This document shows positions 29,291-38,109 of a stretch of DNA of 64,000 nucleotides, piece by piece (position 1 is the first letter of the stretch; each line of letters opens with the position of its first letter). The stretch is taken from assembly GCF_050920415.1 (NCBI RefSeq), contig NZ_CP169309.1, one strand, 5' to 3'. The notes under the pieces are model-generated. The model made no database searches and was not told the DNA's origin. It was given only the letters and a program-made list of their open reading frames with translations. The stretch comes from Escherichia coli. GTDB taxonomy: Bacteria > Pseudomonadota > Gammaproteobacteria > Enterobacterales > Enterobacteriaceae. Made by a program: the position numbers and the translations under genes.

Positions 29291-29323
29291 ATTGCGCATG
29301 TCGCATCTGGCGATTTCCACCAC

Positions 29324-30655
29324 TTACCCCAAATCCGCCATCAACACTTTGGATTTACGCTGGTAGTTGTACAACTGCTTTTTGCTCTCGGGCAGTAAAT
29401 CAATATCCACCGGGGTAAATCCACGTTCCTGGAACCAGTGAATACTGCGCGTGGTCAGTACAAACAATTTGCTTAATCCGCTTTGCTTCGCCTGAGCGGC
29501 AATGCGCTCCAGCAAAACCTCGCCCCTTGATGAGCTGCGGTAATCCGGGTGAACGGCCACACAGGCCATTTCCCCAATCTTCTCTTCCGGGAACGGATAG
29601 AGTGCTGCGCAGGCAATAGTCGTGTTATCGCGCTGAATAATGGTGAATTTGTCGATTTCCATCTCCAGTTGCTCGCGAGAACGGCGTACCAGAATACCTT
29701 GCTGCTCCAGTGGGCGAATCAACTCCAGAATGCCGCCAATATCGTTGATTGTTGCGCGACGAATTTGCTCGGCGCTTTCCATCACAATCTGCGTACCGAT
29801 ACCGTCACGTGAGAACAACTCTTGCAACAGCGCGCCATCTTCCTGGTAACTAATTAAATGACAGCGACGTACGCCGCTGCGGCAGGCTTTCACCGCACCA
29901 CGCAAAAAGCGCACCGTACCGGAGTTGTAATCGCCTTTCTCTTCCTGAGCTTCTACCCGCGCTTGTGCTTCGTTAGGGAAAAGCTCGGAGACAATATCGC
30001 CGTCGTCATTAGTGACGCCCTGTGAAGAGCAAAAACCAATCATCTTTTCAGCTTTCAGTTTGATGGCCAGTTGAGTGGCGATCTCTTCCGAGGTCAGATT
30101 AAAGCTCTCGCCAGTGACTGAAACCGCGACCGGCCCCAGCAGCACTATCGCACCGCTGTCCAGTTGACGATGAATCGCATCTTCGTCAATCCGCCGGATA
30201 CGCCCGCTATGGCAGTAATCCACACCGTCATCCACGCCCAGCGGCTGGGCAATAATAAAATTGCCACTGACGACGTTGATATGCGCGCCCTGCAGCGGCG
30301 TGTTATTGAGACTCATCGACAGGCGAGCAGTAATGTCCAGTTGCAATGTTCCCGCAGCCTGCTTCACCAGTTCTAGTGTTTTGGCGTCGGTCACGCGTAT
30401 ATTTTTGTGATATAGCGGTTCGTGGTGATGCGCTGCCAGATTCGCATCGATCTGCGGGCGCGCTCCATAGACCACGACCAGACGGATGCCGAGGCTGTGC
30501 AGCAACCCGATATCATTAACGATACTGGAGAAATTCTCATGCTCAATGGCTTCACCGCCGAGCATGATGACAAACGTTTTTCCCCGGTGGGTATTGATAT
30601 AAGGAACCGAATGGCGGAATCCCTCGACCAACTCGGTTTTACGTTCCTTCACCAC
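29324..30655 (-). CDS. argA: N-acetylglutamate synthase
   Basis: 443 aa from GTG at 30655 ([12 protein letters not shown]); the track ORF extends in-frame upstream. Confidence 0.93.
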
Positions 30656-30670
30656 GGCACACCTCTTTGC

Positions 30671-30704
30671 ATGATTATTCGTAATTATTGTATTTTTATT
30701 CTGT
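30671..30704. promoter_or_regulatory. Candidate ArgR operator (ARG boxes) upstream of argA
   Basis: AT-rich dyad-like sequence TGATTATTCGTAATTATTGTATTTTTATTC just upstream of the argA start; resembles the ARG-box consensus from memory. Confidence 0.35.
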
Positions 30705-30885
30705 TTTTTCACTGGGTGCAAGTGCAAATTTTACGCATGAGCAACTTTTTTATCAGTAATGCCGTGAATATAAAAAGAATGTTTACCGTTTATTAGATGA
30801 CAGATTATGCGTCTTTCGCTAAAGTTTCCGGTCAAATTAGTCGTTTATTTGTTACACAGCTTAGATTTTTTTGCTCGGGAGATGC

Positions 30886-32139
30886 ATGTCGGGATCCAAC
30901 ACAGCAATCAGCCGTCGTCGTTTACTGCAAGGCGCGGGTGCCATGTGGCTATTGAGCGTAAGTCAGGTCAGTCTGGCTGCGGTCAGCCAGGTCGTGGCGG
31001 TGCGCGTCTGGCCTGCGTCCAGCTACACCCGTGTGACGGTAGAATCTAATCGTCAGCTGAAATATAAGCAGTTCGCGTTGAGTAACCCTGAACGCGTGGT
31101 GGTGGATATCGAAGATGTAAACCTGAACTCAGTGCTCAAGGGGATGGCGGCACAAATTCGTGCTGATGACCCGTTCATTAAGTCGGCGCGCGTCGGGCAG
31201 TTTGACCCGCAAACCGTGCGGATGGTTTTTGAGTTAAAGCAAAACGTAAAACCGCAGCTGTTTGCCCTTGCTCCGGTCGCCGGGTTTAAAGAGCGTCTGG
31301 TGATGGATCTCTATCCTGCCAATGCTCAGGACATGCAGGACCCGCTGCTGGCGCTGCTGGAGGATTACAATAAAGGCGATCTCGAAAAGCAGGTGCCGCC
31401 TGCGCAGAGTGGCCCGCAGCCAGGCAAAGCAGGGCGCGATCGTCCGATTGTCATTATGCTTGACCCTGGCCATGGCGGCGAAGACTCCGGTGCGGTGGGG
31501 AAATACAAAACGCGTGAAAAAGACGTGGTATTGCAAATTGCCCGCCGTTTGCGCTCTCTGATTGAGAAAGAGGGCAATATGAAAGTTTACATGACCCGTA
31601 ATGAAGACATCTTCATTCCGTTGCAAGTGCGCGTAGCAAAAGCACAGAAACAGCGTGCTGACTTGTTTGTCTCTATTCATGCCGATGCCTTTACCAGTCG
31701 CCAGCCGAGCGGTTCCTCTGTGTTTGCGCTCTCTACCAAAGGTGCAACCAGTACCGCGGCAAAATATCTGGCGCAAACTCAGAACGCCTCGGACTTGATT
31801 GGTGGCGTGAGTAAGAGCGGCGACCGTTATGTCGACCATACTATGTTCGATATGGTGCAGTCGCTGACCATTGCCGACAGTCTGAAGTTTGGTAAAGCTG
31901 TGTTGAATAAGCTCGGTAAAATCAACAAGCTGCATAAAAATCAGGTTGAACAAGCCGGGTTTGCCGTGCTGAAAGCGCCTGATATACCCTCTATTTTGGT
32001 CGAAACGGCGTTTATCAGTAACGTTGAGGAAGAACGTAAACTGAAAACGGCAACCTTCCAGCAGGAAGTTGCGGAATCAATCCTCGCAGGGATAAAAGCG
32101 TATTTTGCCGATGGGGCGACGCTGGCGAGAAGGGGATAA
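30886..32139 (+). CDS. amiC: N-acetylmuramoyl-L-alanine amidase AmiC (Tat-exported)
   Basis: Start at ATG 30886 ([19 protein letters not shown] twin-arginine signal); amidase_3 domain. Confidence 0.93.
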
Positions 32140-32310
32140 TGTTTTTATTTATTCAATGAATTTATATTTCGTTGAATAGATAATATTTACCTGAATATTA
32201 GACGTTGGTTTTGTGACTGATGTCGAATATTTGAATGTCGGCTTGAAAAATAAGCCGACCATCTCTTTAATTAAGCACAATTCCGTGTAATGTATATGCA
32301 TTAGTTAATC

Positions 32311-32340
32311 ATCTTGTAACTGTTAAATCAGGCAAGGCAA
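32311..32340 (+). promoter_or_regulatory. RAT (ribonucleic antiterminator) element of a BglG/SacY-type antitermination leader
   Basis: ATCTTGTAACTGTTAAATCAGGCAAGGCAA resembles the RAT consensus GGATTGTTACTG-N6-CAGGCAAAACC and overlaps the 5' arm of the following terminator. Confidence 0.65.
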
Positions 32341-32385
32341 TGTTTGAAGTAATTATTACTTCTGACGTGCCTTGCCTTTTTTTTT
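32329..32385 (+). terminator. Leader terminator partnered with the RAT
   Basis: 10 bp stem AGGCAAGGCA / TGCCTTGCCT with ~28 nt loop, followed by T9 (32377-32385), directly upstream of the antiterminator RBS GGAG. Confidence 0.7.
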
Positions 32386-32396
32386 GGAGCTATGGA

Positions 32397-33220
32397 ATGA
32401 TCATCGAAAAAGTCATGAACAATAATTGTGTACAGGCATCGATGAATGGACAGGAGGTTATCATTTCTGGGCCTGGCGTCGGTTACAAAAAAAATATGGA
32501 ATGTCGGTCCCTGAGCATCCGGCTAACCGGATTTTTTATGTCAGAAATGAACAAAAAAATAAACTCTACAAATTGATTGAGCATGTGGATATTGAGTATA
32601 TTTTTGTTGCCGAATAAATAGTGCAATATGCGGAGAACAATCTCGAAAAAAATCTCAATCCATCGCTACTATTGATTCTTGCTGATCATATTTCGAATGC
32701 AATATCCCGAGTCGCTTCAGGCATACAAATTAATAATGTTTTCCTTGATGAAATCAAAGCGTTGTACAAAGCAGAGTATGCGATAAGTCGCGATGCATTA
32801 ACTATCATTAATGAGCAATTCAGCGTTCAACTTCCTGATGATGAGATTGGTTTTATAGCATTGCATATTTTAAATAATTATGAGAATTCAGTTGATTATG
32901 AATCAGTACGGATTATTGAGTTGTCGCAAATAATCACGGGGCTTATTGAAGTTGTTTATAACAGAAAGGTGGACAGAAGTTCATTTAATTATTCCAGGTT
33001 CATGATACACCTTAAATATTTTTCAAGTCGCGTATTATGCAATGAAAAAATAAAACAGAAAGATATTGGTGATCTCTATGAACAGTTTCTTGAGAAAGAC
33101 ATTCTGTTACAGCGCGCAATTCATGAAATTGAAAGGTATTTGTACGCCACTTTTAAATATGAATTGATTTTGGAAGAAAAACTATATCTCTCTATTCGCA
33201 CCAAAGTATTAATGGACTGA
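32397..33220 (+). pseudogene. BglG/LicT-family transcription antiterminator (CAT-PRD1-PRD2), disrupted
   Basis: CAT domain MIIEKVMNNNCVQASMNGQEVIISGPGVGYKK in one frame; continuation ...RIFYVRNEQKNKLYKLIEHVDIEYIFVAE in the -1 frame after an A8 run (32486-32493); in-frame TAA at 32615-32617; PRD region continues to 33220 (FIALHIL, FMIHLKYF conserved His). Confidence 0.8.
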
Positions 33221-33251
33221 TTATATATAACATTTATATGAGATAACCCGC

Positions 33252-34832
33252 ATGAAACAAAAGAAAGCCTGGAGTTTTTTTCAGAGCCTGGGAAAGGCAT
33301 TTATGTATCCCATCGCTCTGCTAAGTGTATGTGGCATGATGTTAGGGCTAGGAAGTGGTTTAGCCAGCGATGATATGGCAAAATTAATTCCACTACTGGC
33401 TATTCCCGTAATTAAAACCATTCTTGATTTTATTGTTAGCCTTGGTTTGTTTGCCTTTGTCAATTTACCTGTATTGTTTGCGATAGCTATACCTCTGGGG
33501 TTATTAAAAGAGAAAGAGGATAAAGCCTATGGCGCTTTTTCTGGCTTAATTGGTTTCATGGCGATGCATCTGGGAACGAACTTTTATCTTAAACAACATG
33601 ACTTATTGGTCGCTGCTGATCAAATGTCGACACATGGGCAAACCATTATTCTGGGAATCCAGTCCTACAATACCAGTGTGTTGGGTGGGATTATAGCAGG
33701 ATTATTAGTCGCCAGTATGTATAAAAAGATCGTTAACTTACGTATTCCTGAATCATTAGGATTTTATAGTGGCCCACGCCTGGTGCCTATTATTACACTG
33801 ATTGTGATGAGTGGATTTGGTCTGATCATCCCTTTTATCTGGCCGCCATTTTTCAATCTTTTCATGCTCATTGGCCACTGGATTTCAACTTCCGGTCCTG
33901 TTGGCTATTTTTTCTATGCAGTCGCCGAACGCGTGACGATACCTTTTGGTTTAAATCACCTGGTGACGTCAGTTTTCCGCTTTACCCCCATCGGCGGATC
34001 GGCAGTGATCGGCGGAGAAGAGTATTATGGCACCCTGAACATGTTTATGGCGTACGTCAAAGAGAATGCGGTCATTCCGCTGGAGTTGGCGGGGAAAATG
34101 GAACAGGGCAAACTGATGATTCAGTATGGTCTGGCTGGTGCCGCGCTGGCGATGTATCGCACTGCTCATGCTCAAAACAGAAAAGCTATCAAAGCATTGC
34201 TTATTTCCGGGGTGCTTACAGTCATTATTGGCGGCGTCAGCGAACCGATTGAGTTTCTGTTCTTATTTGTCAGTCCACTGCTATTTGTCTTCCATGCTTT
34301 TATGAATGGATTCGCCAACATGGTCTTGCCATATATGGGCGTGAAGATGGGATTTACTGGCGATCTGATTCAATTTATTAGCTTTGGCGTATTGCGTGGC
34401 ACAAGAACAGGTTGGCCAATAGCGGTGTGTGTCGAAGTGGCCTATTTCTTTATTTATTACTTTGTGTTCCGTTGGACTATTCTCAAATTTAACCTGATGA
34501 CGGTAGGCCGTGAAGAGTCCAGTCCTGTCACGCTGAACGCTCATGAGGATACGGCTATAGCGGATATCCCAACGCTTGATAAATCAGAGCTGCAAGCAGC
34601 GGAGCAGATGGTTAAGGCACTTGGTGGTAAAGAGAATATTAAATCCCTGGATAATTGCGTAACTCGTTTACGTTTAACAATCGCAGATATGGGATTGATT
34701 GACGAGGCAGCAATAAAAAGAGCTGGCGGAATTGCGGTTGTTAAACTTGATCAAAATACCCTACAAGTCATTATCGGTACTAAAGTCATCGCCTTGCGTC
34801 GGGATATGGATAACTACATGGGGATATGCTGA
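33252..34832 (+). CDS. PTS sugar transporter EIICB, glucose/maltose family, no EIIA domain
   Basis: 526 aa; polytopic EIIC with SEPIEF motif; C-terminal EIIB with phospho-Cys motif NCVTRLR. Confidence 0.9.
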   Translation: MKQKKAWSFFQSLGKAFMYPIALLSVCGMMLGLGSGLASDDMAKLIPLLAIPVIKTILDFIVSLGLFAFVNLPVLFAIAIPLGLLKEKEDKAYGAFSGLIGFMAMHLGTNFYLKQHDLLVAADQMSTHGQTIILGIQSYNTSVLGGIIAGLLVASMYKKIVNLRIPESLGFYSGPRLVPIITLIVMSGFGLIIPFIWPPFFNLFMLIGHWISTSGPVGYFFYAVAERVTIPFGLNHLVTSVFRFTPIGGSAVIGGEEYYGTLNMFMAYVKENAVIPLELAGKMEQGKLMIQYGLAGAALAMYRTAHAQNRKAIKALLISGVLTVIIGGVSEPIEFLFLFVSPLLFVFHAFMNGFANMVLPYMGVKMGFTGDLIQFISFGVLRGTRTGWPIAVCVEVAYFFIYYFVFRWTILKFNLMTVGREESSPVTLNAHEDTAIADIPTLDKSELQAAEQMVKALGGKENIKSLDNCVTRLRLTIADMGLIDEAAIKRAGGIAVVKLDQNTLQVIIGTKVIALRRDMDNYMGIC

Positions 34833-36007
34833 TGGATGTTTTTAATACTCCTATTTCCCGCAAAGGAACATATTGTACCCAATGGGACTTTTGCGAGGAC
34901 AGATTTGGTGTAAAAGATGTATTACCATTCTCTATTTCAGATATGGATCTTCCGATACCGGAAGCTATCATCAGGGCATTAAGAAAACGTCTGGAACACC
35001 CGATTTTAGGGTACAGCCGTTGGCAGCATGATGACTATCTGAATGCGATAGTCAATTGGTATCATCAACAATATAAAACTGAAATCAAACCAGAATGGAT
35101 CACCTATAGCCCAAGCGTGATGTACTCCATTGCTAAAGCAATAGAGTTATTGACATCGCATGGTGATAATATTCTCGTTTTTACACCTGTCTATAATGCA
35201 TTTTTTGATATAATTAAACATAGCGAGAGAAATATTCTGACAGCCTCTTTGATTATAAAAAATGAGGGGGGCTACGCTATCAATTGGCAAGATTTTGATC
35301 TTAAGATTCAAAGCGCAAAGATGGTGTTATTATGTAATCCTCATAACCCGACAGGAACCGTCTGGTCGGAAGAAGAGCTGCATAAAATCGCTGCAAGCTG
35401 TGCAAGACATAATGTCTGGTTATGTTCAGATGAAATTCACAGTGATTTTGTTTTTAATCGTAGCTTTACATCTGCGCTTAAAATAAAAAAAGAAAAAGTA
35501 GTGGTGTTTAATTCGATATCGAAGACATTTAATGTTCCTGCGCTAACAGGATCGTATATGATTTCAACTGACGATAATTTTAATCATAAGTTCAGGACGA
35601 TATCAAGATATCGCGATTTTGTAAACTCCCCATCCGTACTGAATATAATTGCAACTATTATTGCCTATAACGAATGTGAGGGATGGTTAAAGTCATTAAA
35701 GGCACATATTGCCTCTAACATTCAATTCACCCAGCAGTATCTGAACGAAAATACTCCAGAATTGATTGTAAGGCCTGCTGATGGTTGCTATTTTTCGTGG
35801 ATAGATTGCTCTGCTATTGGTTATCCCTTTGATGAATTCTACAGTCGATTAATTCATGAAGGCAAAGTGGGCATTATGGCGGGGAATGTCTATGGAACGG
35901 AGGGGGAGGGCTACCTTCGTCTGAACCTGGCCTGCGGTCGAGAAAAATTATATATGGGGCTTACGCGTCTTGCGAGTGTAATTAAAAATATTAATCAAGG
36001 AAAATAA
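34832..36007 (+). CDS. MalY/PatB-like PLP-dependent C-S lyase (aminotransferase class I/II fold)
   Basis: N-terminus MDVFNTPISRKGTYCTQWD aligns with E. coli MalY MFDFSKVVDRHGTWCTQWD; SxSKTFN PLP-lysine region; alternative ATG at 34826 overlaps the PTS stop. Confidence 0.88.
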   Translation: MDVFNTPISRKGTYCTQWDFCEDRFGVKDVLPFSISDMDLPIPEAIIRALRKRLEHPILGYSRWQHDDYLNAIVNWYHQQYKTEIKPEWITYSPSVMYSIAKAIELLTSHGDNILVFTPVYNAFFDIIKHSERNILTASLIIKNEGGYAINWQDFDLKIQSAKMVLLCNPHNPTGTVWSEEELHKIAASCARHNVWLCSDEIHSDFVFNRSFTSALKIKKEKVVVFNSISKTFNVPALTGSYMISTDDNFNHKFRTISRYRDFVNSPSVLNIIATIIAYNECEGWLKSLKAHIASNIQFTQQYLNENTPELIVRPADGCYFSWIDCSAIGYPFDEFYSRLIHEGKVGIMAGNVYGTEGEGYLRLNLACGREKLYMGLTRLASVIKNINQGK

Positions 36008-36009
36008 AA

Positions 36010-36606
36010 ATGAACAGCACGGATCTTATCCATCTCATTAAACATTTTATGCGTAACGAACATAAAGCAGTTGAAGAAGTTATTGATTCCCCCCTTTCGG
36101 AGGTCGCAAATTTAATTAAAGTATTACAGTCTTGTCAGGGGAAAGTTGTTTTTATTGGTGTCGGTAAGTCCGGTATTATTGCCCGAAAACTCGCCGCAAC
36201 ATTTGCCAGCACTGGAACTCCCTCGTTTTTTGTTCACGGTACTGAAGCCGTACACGGCGATCTTGGGATGGTGGCGAAAGATGATGTTGTTATTCTTATT
36301 TCAAACAGTGGTGAGACGACAGAAATCCTGGCAACACTACCTAGTCTGAAAAAAATGGGTAATTATTTGATCTCCTTTACCCGCAGTCATCGCTCATCGC
36401 TTGCGATAAGTTGTGATTTATCCGTTGAAATTCCCGTAAAAAGTGAGGCGGATAATTTAGGTTTAGCGCCGTCATGCTCATCAACAGTCGTTCTGGTTGT
36501 TGGTGATGCGGTGGCGCTTGCGCTCTCCGAATTGAAAAAGTTTACTTGTGCTGATTTCGGCTTATATCATCCAGGAGGTGCGCTCGGTATTAAAGCAAAC
36601 TCATAA
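36010..36606 (+). CDS. SIS-domain-only sugar-phosphate isomerase, KdsD/GutQ-like without CBS domains
   Basis: 198 aa; GVGKSGIIARKLAATFASTGTPSFFVHGTEAVHGDLGMV and SNSGET closely resemble the KdsD SIS domain; ORF ends where CBS domains would begin. Confidence 0.88.
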   Translation: MNSTDLIHLIKHFMRNEHKAVEEVIDSPLSEVANLIKVLQSCQGKVVFIGVGKSGIIARKLAATFASTGTPSFFVHGTEAVHGDLGMVAKDDVVILISNSGETTEILATLPSLKKMGNYLISFTRSHRSSLAISCDLSVEIPVKSEADNLGLAPSCSSTVVLVVGDAVALALSELKKFTCADFGLYHPGGALGIKANS

Positions 36607-36676
36607 TTTTAGAATATAAAACAGTAACCGGTCACGCCATCTTTTGGGGTGGCGTTCATTGATGTGAGTGTCAGCT

Positions 36677-37624
36677 ATGAAAAACGTTCTGGTCACCGTT
36701 CCCAGCTTTTCAGCGCGTTGTGTTTCTGCCAGCAAGCTGCTAAGAGAAAATCATTTTAACCTTATTATCAAGAATAATGTGGAGCATCTGGTTAAATCAG
36801 AATCCACAGTATTACGAGAATCTATTTGCGCAGTCATTGCCGGAAAAGATTGTTATCAAGCGGATACGTTATCGCGACTACCAGGAGTGAAAATAATATC
36901 GAGATTCGGGACAGGGATTGATAATATTGATCTTCATACGGCTCGACAATCAGGTATTGTGGTCAATAATGCTGTTGGGATTAATTCAAATGCAGTCGCG
37001 GAATTTATCATTGGTCTTATTTTTGCGAGCATGAGAAATATCCCCGGTAGCTATCATGCGATGCAAAATGGTTATTGGGGCGAGTCGCATGGCTGCGAGT
37101 TACAAGGTAAACGTATTGGCCTGCTTGGCTACGGCAATATTGGCAAAACACTGGCGAAAAGGTTATCTGGTTTTGATGTTGAGCTTTTAGCTTTTGACAA
37201 ACAACCCGATTTCCAGGCCGCAGGCAAAGATGGAGTTCAGTTCGTATCAATTGAAGATATCTTTATGCAGTCTCATGTCATCATCGTTCTTTTGCCATTT
37301 TCTCCGGAGCTGGAGAACTTCATTAGTCATAAATATTTGTCGATGATGCGCAATGGTGCTCTTATCATCAACGCCGCAAGGGGAAAGTTGCTGGATGAGA
37401 GTGCTTTACTTCAGGTAATTGAAGAACGAAATGTTTTTGCAGCACTGGATGTGTTTAGCTCTGAACCGCTAGCGCAATTTAGCCCATTGCTACATGCCAG
37501 GAATATCATTACAACGCCGCATATTGCGGCCGCCACCGTTGAGTCATACCAGCAAACCGGGATATACGTTGCCAGGTCGATAATAGATTTCTTTGCAGGA
37601 AGGGAGATAAAAAACGTGCTGTGA
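36677..37624 (+). CDS. NAD-dependent D-isomer-specific 2-hydroxyacid dehydrogenase
   Basis: About 315 aa; NAD-binding GLLGYGNIGKT and catalytic-region TPHIAAAT; start could alternatively be GTG at 36668. Confidence 0.85.
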   Translation: MKNVLVTVPSFSARCVSASKLLRENHFNLIIKNNVEHLVKSESTVLRESICAVIAGKDCYQADTLSRLPGVKIISRFGTGIDNIDLHTARQSGIVVNNAVGINSNAVAEFIIGLIFASMRNIPGSYHAMQNGYWGESHGCELQGKRIGLLGYGNIGKTLAKRLSGFDVELLAFDKQPDFQAAGKDGVQFVSIEDIFMQSHVIIVLLPFSPELENFISHKYLSMMRNGALIINAARGKLLDESALLQVIEERNVFAALDVFSSEPLAQFSPLLHARNIITTPHIAAATVESYQQTGIYVARSIIDFFAGREIKNVL

Positions 37625-37650
37625 GTTCAGCTAAGGAAGATTTCAGGTAC

Positions 37651-37683
37651 AAAAAAACCGCAATCTGTGAAACATATTGCGGT
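37651..37683 (-). terminator. Rho-independent terminator of the tRNA-fMet operon
   Basis: On the minus strand, stem ACCGCAAT / ATTGCGGT followed by T7, immediately 3' of the last tRNA copy. Confidence 0.75.
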
Positions 37684-37702
37684 TTATCAGCATCATAAGT
37701 GT

Positions 37703-37779
<77 letters not shown>

Positions 37780-37812
37780 TCACCGTACTGCTTTACTTCA
37801 TCAAATTTTGAT

Positions 37813-37889
<77 letters not shown>

Positions 37890-37922
37890 TCACCGTACTG
37901 CTTTACTTCATCAAATTTTAAT

Positions 37923-37999
<77 letters not shown>

Positions 38000-38032
38000 T
38001 CACCGTACTGCTTTACTTCATCAAATTTTAAT

Positions 38033-38109
<77 letters not shown>

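What the first reader, a model, noticed from the sequence alone, without database searches (positions are those of the whole stretch)
36010..36606. Stand-alone SIS domain with KdsD-like active-site region and no CBS domains
The 198 aa protein matches the N-terminal SIS domain of arabinose-5-phosphate isomerases KdsD/GutQ almost motif for motif (GKSGxIxRKxAATFASTGTPSFFVH, SNSGET, GLAP) but ends where the tandem CBS domains of KdsD would begin. In a PTS operon this implies a phosphorylated pentose or related ketose/aldose intermediate, which is unusual because PTS substrates are normally hexoses or hexitols. It could alternatively be a deglycase-type SIS enzyme acting on a sugar conjugate.
Basis: partly seen in the sequence, partly recalled or inferred. 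Interest (0 to 1): 0.6.

Follow-up and report, generated by a model that had tools for sequence, protein, structure and literature searches.

The report
Known CBS-less arabinose-5-phosphate isomerase (c3406)

Summary
Window 36010-36606 (+) encodes a 198-aa protein with one SIS domain and no CBS domains. It aligns to the SIS half of E. coli KdsD (59% identity over 154 residues) and ends where KdsD's CBS pair begins. All five KdsD active-site residues are conserved.

It is already known. The protein is 191/198 identical to CFT073 c3406, whose sequence equals PDB 5UQI, "E. coli CFT073 c3406 in complex with A5P". Mosberg et al. [quoted passage not shown]

The same five-gene operon lies next to amiC in CFT073, and in 1688 of 5426 complete E. 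coli genomes. Its genes are a BglG-type antiterminator, a MalX-like EIICB, a MalY/PatB C-S lyase, the SIS gene and a PGDH-like dehydrogenase. The operon is low in GC and under purifying selection.

GmhA, FrlB and HxlB relationships are rejected. The sugar taken up by the operon, and the enzyme's role in the cell, remain unknown. GutQ, an isomerase of the same kind in the glucitol PTS operon, shows that the PTS sugar need not be a pentose.

In this strain the antiterminator gene is broken, so the operon is probably not inducible.

The parts
36010..36606 (+). Gene for the single-SIS-domain D-arabinose-5-phosphate isomerase, the orthologue of CFT073 c3406 (198 aa). The predicted catalytic residues are K53, H82, E105, E146 and H187.
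   Evidence: ORF. SIS domain only. 191/198 identical to CFT073 C_RS16165, whose sequence equals PDB 5uqi. AlphaFold model with pLDDT 94 matches 5uqi at TM 0.93/0.98 and rmsd 1.0 A, and the KdsD SIS domain 2xhz at TM 0.81/0.92. The five residues are invariant in 30 sequences. dN/dS against CFT073 is 0.045.
32311..32386 (+). Operon leader. A RAT-like sequence (TTGTAACTG...CAGGCAA) overlaps the 5' arm of a long hairpin (about 32330-32377) that is followed by T9. This is a putative antitermination-controlled intrinsic terminator.
   Evidence: Sequence. RNA fold -32.4 kcal/mol, z = -5.2 against shuffles. The RAT consensus is recalled from memory, so the RAT assignment is a lead, not a test.
32397..33220 (+). 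BglG/LicT-family PRD antiterminator gene, which is a pseudogene in this window. It has a 1-bp deletion in an A-run at about 32489 and an AAA-to-TAA nonsense change at 32615-32617.
   Evidence: Alignment with the intact 274-aa CFT073 gene. RefSeq note 'frameshifted; internal stop' in the 100%-identical genome. NCBIfam LicT match 159 bits for the C-terminal fragment. The gene is intact in genomes 99.6% identical.
33252..34832 (+). PTS EIICB of the glucose/maltose family (MalX-like, 526 aa). It has no EIIA domain.
   Evidence: NCBIfam TIGR02004 PTS-IIBC-malX 536 bits, below the 632 cut-off. RefSeq 'PTS transporter subunit EIIC'.
34832..36007 (+). MalY/PatB-family PLP-dependent C-S lyase (391 aa). 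Its stop codon lies 2 nt before the SIS start codon.
   Evidence: TIGR04350 PatB family C-S lyase 368.7 bits, above the 340 cut-off. Annotation. Junction sequence.
36677..37624 (+). D-2-hydroxyacid / phosphoglycerate dehydrogenase-like NAD enzyme (315 aa), the last gene of the operon.
   Evidence: NCBIfam PGDH 211 bits, below the 454 cut-off, plus other 2-hydroxyacid dehydrogenase models. Annotation.

Best explanation
The gene encodes the orthologue of E. coli CFT073 c3406, a stand-alone SIS-domain D-arabinose-5-phosphate isomerase (EC 5.3.1.13). The enzyme interconverts D-ribulose-5-phosphate and D-arabinose-5-phosphate by the aldose-ketose isomerisation typical of SIS enzymes. It uses the same active-site residues as KdsD, here K53, H82, E105, E146 and H187. 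By analogy with KdsD, H187 is contributed by a neighbouring subunit of an oligomer. The protein lacks the two C-terminal CBS domains of KdsD, GutQ and KpsF. It is the fourth gene of a horizontally acquired, low-GC operon inserted between amiC and the tRNA-fMet genes. The operon encodes a BglG-type antiterminator, a MalX-like EIICB, a MalY/PatB C-S lyase, the SIS isomerase and a 2-hydroxyacid dehydrogenase, and it takes up and processes a carbohydrate that has not been identified. What is shown here: sequence identity, fold, conserved residues, operon synteny and purifying selection. What is taken from the literature and the PDB: isomerase activity and A5P binding of the CFT073 protein. What is inferred: (a) this allele has the same activity, because its 7 substitutions all lie outside the invariant columns; (b) the role in the cell is catabolic or regulatory for the operon rather than supply of Kdo for LPS; (c) in this particular strain the operon is poorly inducible or not inducible, because its antiterminator gene carries a frameshift and a stop codon while the leader terminator is intact.
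For: The protein is 198 aa with a SIS domain only. PDB 5uqi/5vhu match at E 1e-119. The 5uqi sequence is identical to CFT073 C_RS16165 and 191/198 identical to the window protein. The Foldseek top hit is 5uqi, 'E. coli CFT073 c3406 in complex with A5P', at TM 0.93/0.98 and rmsd 1.0 A. Next is the KdsD SIS domain 2xhz at TM 0.81/0.92 and rmsd 1.7 A. KdsD K59/H88/E111/E152/H193 map to K53/H82/E105/E146/H187, and these are invariant across 30 SIS-only homologues plus KdsD and GutQ. The same operon lies at the same chromosomal site in CFT073 and in 1688 of 5426 complete E. coli genomes. RefSeq names the protein a KpsF/GutQ family sugar-phosphate isomerase. Mosberg et al. 2011 is cited by title, and a review states that this isomerase converts Ru5P to A5P in a UPEC strain. 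dN/dS is 0.045. GC is 35-44% against 50-55% in the flanks. The antiterminator lesions are, and the leader terminator.
Against: No assay exists for this exact allele, which differs from c3406 at 7 of 198 residues. One of these, T104 for A, is adjacent to E105, but the position is variable in the family. The primary paper could not be read in the held library, so its kinetic and genetic details rest on my recollection of the abstract. The role in the cell is unknown. As I recall, deleting c3406 alone did not reproduce the colonisation defect of the c3405-c3410 deletion. Isomerase activity in vitro does not prove that A5P/Ru5P is the substrate in vivo.
Confidence: 0.93

Rival explanations
1. The A5P/Ru5P activity is real but incidental. 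In the cell the enzyme would isomerise a different phosphosugar made from the unknown PTS substrate, after the MalY/PatB-type PLP enzyme and/or the dehydrogenase have acted. Alternatively it would make A5P only as a regulatory signal for the operon, as has been proposed for GutQ and the gut operon.
For: The antiterminator-EIICB-aminotransferase-SIS core is conserved in Enterobacter (64% identity) and Atlantibacter (85%), which suggests the four proteins work together. The closest non-enterobacterial relatives (50-62% identity) are SIS-only proteins of Firmicutes, which as I recall make no Kdo or LPS. These genes sit beside PTS-GAT/DHDPS-like/KDPG-aldolase clusters or in a LacI-SIS-PfkB kinase-MFS cluster. 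That points to a catabolic role for the subfamily. GutQ sets the precedent in the glucitol PTS operon.
Against: The crystal structure has A5P bound. The active-site residues are identical to those of KdsD. No alternative substrate is known.
Confidence: 0.25
2. It is a deglycase- or GmhA-type SIS enzyme (similar to FrlB, GfrE or GmhA) acting on a sugar-amine phosphate or heptose phosphate.
For: A PLP-dependent enzyme is encoded immediately upstream, which could hint at an amino-compound conjugate.
Against: BLASTP gives FrlB 23.5 bits at 20% identity and GmhA 27.7 bits at 20% identity, against KdsD 172 bits at 59%. NCBIfam scores GmhA at 19 bits and lists no FrlB model. Structurally, GmhA matches at TM 0.66-0.68 and rmsd 3.8 A, against TM 0.81/0.92 and rmsd 1.7 A for KdsD.
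Confidence: 0.02
3. It is a decaying fragment of a full-length kdsD/kpsF/gutQ-type gene that lost its CBS half, and so a non-functional remnant.
For: It matches only the N-terminal half of the KdsD and KpsF profiles.
Against: The same 196-201 aa length is conserved in hundreds of homologues across Enterobacteria and Firmicutes. dN/dS is 0.045. The 198-aa protein folds and was crystallised with ligand. There is no room for a CBS remnant downstream.
Confidence: 0.01

Closest known systems
E. coli CFT073 c3406 (RefSeq C_RS16165 / WP_001066223.1; PDB 5UQI, 5VHU), the 'unique arabinose 5-phosphate isomerase' of Mosberg et al. 2011
   Same: Both are 198 aa and 96.5% identical. They share the single-SIS architecture, the same five-gene operon and the same insertion site next to amiC. 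The model superposes on 5uqi at rmsd 1.0 A.
   Different: There are seven conservative or peripheral substitutions: N3S, H15R, L18H, F32V, A104T, H128R and R180C. The operon DNA is about 6% diverged. In CFT073 a type VI secretion island lies on the far side of the operon, and it is absent here. The antiterminator is intact in CFT073 and broken here.
E. coli KdsD (and its paralogues GutQ and KpsF), the canonical SIS + 2xCBS arabinose-5-phosphate isomerases
   Same: The SIS domains are homologous: 59% identity to KdsD and 45% to GutQ over 154 residues. The catalytic residues are identical and the fold is the same (2xhz). Like GutQ, the gene sits in a PTS operon.
   Different: There is no tandem CBS pair, so the protein is 198 aa against 328 and 321 aa. 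The score is below the TIGR00393 KpsF/GutQ cut-off (190.4 against 203.7). The gene is not in the kds/lpt LPS locus.
Single-SIS-domain homologues with solved structures: Bacteroides fragilis 3ETN and Listeria monocytogenes 3FXA
   Same: These are also about 200 aa, SIS-only proteins with the same fold: TM 0.85-0.90 and 30-34% identity.
   Different: They are much more distant in sequence and come from different genomic contexts. As I recall, the Listeria protein was reported to prefer glucose-6-phosphate, so the SIS-only architecture alone does not fix the substrate.
E. coli malX-malY (PTS EIICB plus C-S lyase), the nearest known analogue of the operon's upstream half
   Same: The EIICB matches the MalX models best, and the PLP enzyme passes the PatB/MalY family cut-off.
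   Different: This operon adds a BglG-type antiterminator, the isomerase and a dehydrogenase. I did not compare the sequences directly with K-12 MalX and MalY.

Membership tests
Arabinose-5-phosphate isomerase, KdsD/GutQ/KpsF type (EC 5.3.1.13) | KdsD-type SIS domain (PF01380) with significant, best-in-class similarity | tested here: met
   Pfam SIS E 1.6e-25. The best NCBIfam models are KdsD at 196 bits, kpsF at 190 and GutQ at 162. BLASTP to KdsD gives 59% identity and 172 bits.
Arabinose-5-phosphate isomerase, KdsD/GutQ/KpsF type (EC 5.3.1.13) | Active-site residues equivalent to KdsD K59, H88, E111, E152 and H193. The residue list is from my recollection of the mutational and structural study behind PDB 2xhz. 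| tested here: met
   K53, H82, E105, E146 and H187 align to them. They are invariant in a 30-sequence alignment.
Arabinose-5-phosphate isomerase, KdsD/GutQ/KpsF type (EC 5.3.1.13) | C-terminal tandem CBS domains (the full KpsF/GutQ architecture, TIGR00393) | tested here: not met
   There is no CBS hit. The protein ends at the SIS/CBS boundary. TIGR00393 scores 190.4 bits against a cut-off of 203.7 and matches only profile positions 1-152 of 268. The protein is therefore an architectural variant, not a canonical family member.
Arabinose-5-phosphate isomerase, KdsD/GutQ/KpsF type (EC 5.3.1.13) | Catalysis of Ru5P <-> A5P | not testable with these tools
   This is reported for the 96.5%-identical CFT073 protein (paper title; review statement; PDB 5uqi with A5P bound). 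It has not been assayed for this allele.
Arabinose-5-phosphate isomerase, KdsD/GutQ/KpsF type (EC 5.3.1.13) | SIS fold superposable on a solved arabinose-5-phosphate isomerase | tested here: met
   The model has pLDDT 94. It matches 2xhz at TM 0.81/0.92 and rmsd 1.7 A, and 5uqi at TM 0.93/0.98 and rmsd 1.0 A.
c3406 orthologous group (single-SIS isomerase of the c3405-c3410 operon) | Near-identical full-length sequence | tested here: met
   191/198 identical with no gaps.
c3406 orthologous group (single-SIS isomerase of the c3405-c3410 operon) | Same operon (antiterminator, EIICB, MalY/PatB, SIS, dehydrogenase) at the amiC / tRNA-fMet site | tested here: met
   Window and 100%-identical genome annotation compared with CFT073. 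The c3405-c3410 block is described in PMC2831201.
GmhA (sedoheptulose-7-phosphate isomerase) | Sequence and fold closer to GmhA than to other SIS families | tested here: not met
   27.7 bits and 20% identity. NCBIfam scores 19 bits against a cut-off of 265. TM 0.66-0.68 and rmsd 3.8 A.
FrlB-type deglycase (double-SIS fructoselysine-6-P deglycase) | Two SIS domains and sequence similarity to FrlB | tested here: not met
   There is only one SIS domain. BLASTP gives 23.5 bits, 20% identity and E 0.013 against a four-sequence database.
6-phospho-3-hexuloisomerase (HxlB/PHI) | Score at or above the TIGR03127 cut-off | tested here: not met
   50.1 bits against a cut-off of 160.

The most novel reading that the evidence does not exclude
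The c3406-type SIS-only isomerase may not be a redundant source of A5P for Kdo. It may instead be a dedicated step, or the maker of a signal molecule, in the catabolism of an unidentified PTS-imported carbohydrate or sugar conjugate. That compound would be processed together with a MalY/PatB C-S lyase and a 2-hydroxyacid dehydrogenase, in a pathway acquired from a low-GC donor. Its true substrate in the cell could be something other than A5P/Ru5P.
Probability: 0.25. Interest if true: 0.4.

Novelty: already known. Interest (0 to 1): 0.12.

Why it matters
For the scan this finding is a correct call on a known gene, so it should not be pursued as a discovery. One open question remains. The substrate of the c3405-c3410 PTS operon is unidentified, and so is the reason an arabinose-5-phosphate isomerase is kept next to a C-S lyase. 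As I recall, this operon was implicated in urinary-tract colonisation by CFT073. About a third of complete E. coli genomes carry it. Related SIS-only genes sit beside PTS clusters in Firmicutes, so there may be a recurring and still unexplained link between this kind of isomerase and PTS sugar systems.

Tried and rejected
1. GmhA, FrlB and HxlB relationships were tested by NCBIfam, BLASTP and Foldseek and rejected.
2. The idea of a truncated pseudogene of a full-length isomerase was rejected on conserved length, dN/dS and the solved structure.
3. I tried to read the primary paper by DOI and by PMC3133213, and also Cech 2017 (PMC5553037) and Meredith & Woodard 2005 (PMC1251629). None is held. 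A full-text search for 'c3406' gave only unrelated hits, and searches for the metV island gave no functional follow-up on the operon's substrate. The published kinetics and mutant phenotypes are therefore cited from my memory of the abstract and marked as such.
4. An Rfam scan of the operon found only the four tRNAs and no curated RAT or leader family. The simple terminator scan missed the leader hairpin, which was found by folding.
5. I considered guessing the PTS substrate from gene content, for example an amino-sugar or a thio-conjugate. I found no evidence that discriminates between candidates, so none is proposed.

Full report
**Observation**

The ORF at window 36010-36606 (+) runs from ATG to TAA and encodes 198 aa.
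- The quoted motifs are present: GKSGIIARKLAATFASTGTPSFFVH (residues 52-76), SNSGET (98-103) and GLAP (151-154).
- Pfam finds a single SIS domain (PF01380, residues 41-170, E 1.6e-25) and no CBS domain.
- The best NCBIfam models are KdsD (NF008141, 196 bits), KpsF/GutQ (TIGR00393, 190 bits) and GutQ (162 bits). Each matches only over its N-terminal SIS half.
- In an alignment with K-12 KdsD and GutQ (fetched), the protein ends about ten residues after the conserved HPGGALG. KdsD and GutQ continue for about 125 residues of CBS domains.
- The next gene starts at 36677, so there is no room for a CBS remnant.

**Identity**

- A search of PDB sequences returns a 198-aa chain, 5uqi/5vhu, at E 1e-119.
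- I fetched the CFT073 chromosome. The 5uqi sequence is exactly the product of CFT073 C_RS16165. The window protein is 191/198 identical to it, with substitutions at positions 3, 15, 18, 32, 104, 128 and 180.
- An AlphaFold model (pLDDT 94.1) searched against the PDB gives these matches:

| Target | Description | TM (query/target) | rmsd |
|---|---|---|---|
| 5uqi | "E. coli CFT073 c3406 in complex with A5P" | 0.93/0.98 | 1.0 A |
| 2xhz | SIS domain of E. coli KdsD | 0.81/0.92 | 1.7 A |
| 3fxa, 3etn | single-SIS proteins | 0.85-0.90 | 1.6-2.1 A |
| GmhA | sedoheptulose-7-phosphate isomerase | about 0.66 | 3.8 A |

- KdsD residues K59, H88, E111, E152 and H193 are the active-site residues probed in the 2xhz study, as I recall. 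They correspond to K53, H82, E105, E146 and H187.
- These five residues are invariant in a 30-sequence alignment of SIS-only homologues plus KdsD and GutQ. None of the seven substitutions falls in an invariant or nearly invariant column.

**Literature**

- Two held papers list Mosberg et al. [quoted passage not shown]
- One review summarises it as an isomerase of a UPEC strain that converts Ru5P to A5P.
- PMC2831201 describes c3405-c3410 as a conserved colinear block inside PAI-CFT073-metV, annotated as a maltose/glucose-type PTS.
- The primary paper is not in the held library.
- From my own recollection of its abstract: c3406 resembles the SIS domain of the other isomerases but lacks the tandem CBS domains. 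Recombinant c3406 had arabinose-5-phosphate isomerase activity. Deleting c3406 alone did not abolish competitive fitness in the mouse urinary tract, whereas deleting c3405-c3410 had done so in earlier work by Lloyd and colleagues.

**Context**

The window is E. coli chromosome: recD, argA, amiC, the operon, four tRNA-fMet genes, then mltA, tcdA, csdE and csdA.

The operon contains:

| Coordinates | Gene product |
|---|---|
| 32397-33220 | BglG/LicT-type PRD antiterminator |
| 33252-34832 | MalX-like EIICB |
| 34832-36007 | MalY/PatB-family C-S lyase (passes its NCBIfam cut-off) |
| 36010-36606 | SIS isomerase |
| 36677-37624 | PGDH-like 2-hydroxyacid dehydrogenase |

- The gene assignments rest. 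The same five genes, in the same order and next to amiC, are present in CFT073.
- The 5.4-kb block occurs in 1688 of 5426 complete E. coli genomes. Ninety-four are at least 99% identical and 1545 are 90-95% identical.
- GC is 35-44% in the operon against 50-55% in the flanks, which fits horizontal acquisition.
- Between the window and CFT073 alleles all genes show strong purifying selection. dN/dS is 0.045 for the SIS gene.

**Relatives elsewhere**

- The nearest non-E. coli relatives are 196-201 aa SIS-only proteins from Atlantibacter (85% identity), Citrobacter (82%) and Enterobacter (about 64%). Next come many Firmicutes at 50-62%. This is as close as, or closer than, E. coli's own KdsD, which is 48.5% identical over the full length.
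- Atlantibacter and Enterobacter keep the antiterminator-EIICB-aminotransferase-SIS core.
- In Lactiplantibacillus, Companilactobacillus and Enterococcus the SIS-only gene adjoins a cluster of PTS-GAT, a DHDPS-like gene, a KDPG aldolase and a PRD regulator.
- In Mammaliicoccus lentus it lies in a LacI-SIS-PfkB kinase-MFS cluster.

The subfamily is therefore repeatedly linked to sugar uptake and catabolism. As I recall, many of the carrier organisms make no Kdo.

**Mechanism**

The best-supported reading is an aldose-ketose isomerase that interconverts Ru5P and A5P with KdsD's catalytic machinery but without the CBS module.
- Shown here: homology, fold, catalytic residues, synteny and selection.
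- From the PDB and the literature: A5P binding and isomerase activity of the orthologue.
- Inferred: the same activity for this allele, and a catabolic or regulatory role rather than an LPS-biosynthetic one.

That is not compelled, because gutQ, which encodes an isomerase of the same kind, lies in the glucitol PTS operon of K-12.

**Rivals**

- The deglycase or GmhA reading is rejected. FrlB scores 23.5 bits and GmhA 27.7 bits, against 172 bits for KdsD. HxlB scores 50 bits against a cut-off of 160.
- A decaying gene fragment is rejected by conserved length, selection and the solved structure.
- One reading stays open, at roughly 0.25: A5P/Ru5P may not be the substrate in the cell, or A5P may serve mainly as a signal.

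**Strain-specific point**

- Relative to the intact CFT073 gene, the antiterminator here has a 1-bp deletion at about 32489 and an AAA-to-TAA change at 32615-32617.
- RefSeq marks it "frameshifted; internal stop" in the 100%-identical genome. Genomes that are 99.6% identical have it intact.
- Upstream, a RAT-like sequence overlaps a long hairpin followed by T9 (fold -32.4 kcal/mol, z -5.2).
- If that hairpin is the controlled terminator, the operon, including the SIS gene, is probably not inducible in this strain. This is an inference.

**Verdict**

Interest is low. The only open question is the operon's substrate.

Noticed in passing
window 32397-33220: The BglG/LicT-type antiterminator of the operon is a pseudogene in this strain. 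It has a 1-bp deletion in an A-run at about 32489 and an AAA-to-TAA stop at 32615-32617. The gene is intact in CFT073 and in E. coli genomes 99.6% identical over the operon.
   Followed up: yes
window 32311-32386: In the leader upstream of the antiterminator gene, a RAT-like motif (TTGTAACTG...CAGGCAA) overlaps the 5' arm of a long hairpin followed by T9 (-32.4 kcal/mol, z -5.2). This is a likely antitermination-controlled terminator. The simple terminator scan and Rfam both missed it.
   Followed up: partly
window 30886-32139 (amiC) and 29292-37716: amiC differs from the CFT073 allele at 88 of 1254 nucleotides but at 0 amino acids (dS 0.38). The argA-amiC-operon block is 93.8% identical to CFT073, against 96.3% for the adjacent recC-recD block. 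This suggests a locally older or recombined segment around the insertion site.
   Followed up: partly
window 37703-38109 (- strand): There are four tandem tRNA-Met(CAT) genes at 110-bp spacing between the operon and mltA. As I recall, K-12 has three (metZ, metW, metV). Unlike CFT073, no type VI secretion island lies beyond the operon here.
   Followed up: partly
window 32000-37500: The operon has 35-44% GC against 50-55% in the flanking core genes, consistent with acquisition from a low-GC donor.
   Followed up: partly
L005 8001-8594; L012 7001-7606; L013 7001-7603; L007 8001-8606: SIS-only homologues (50-60% identical) in Firmicutes lie next to PTS-GAT + DHDPS-like + KDPG-aldolase + PRD-regulator clusters in Lactiplantibacillus, Companilactobacillus and Enterococcus. 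In Mammaliicoccus lentus the gene is in a LacI-SIS-PfkB kinase-MFS cluster. This recurrent link between SIS-only isomerase-like genes and sugar-uptake loci occurs in bacteria that, as I recall, lack Kdo.
   Followed up: partly
L009 4392-8591; L014 3382-7606: Enterobacter and Atlantibacter carry the antiterminator-EIICB-aminotransferase-SIS core, and no dehydrogenase gene is called after the SIS gene in either. In Atlantibacter it is at the same amiC-mltA site, with an uncalled gap after the SIS gene. In Enterobacter it is next to a fructose-PTS-like cluster.
   Followed up: no
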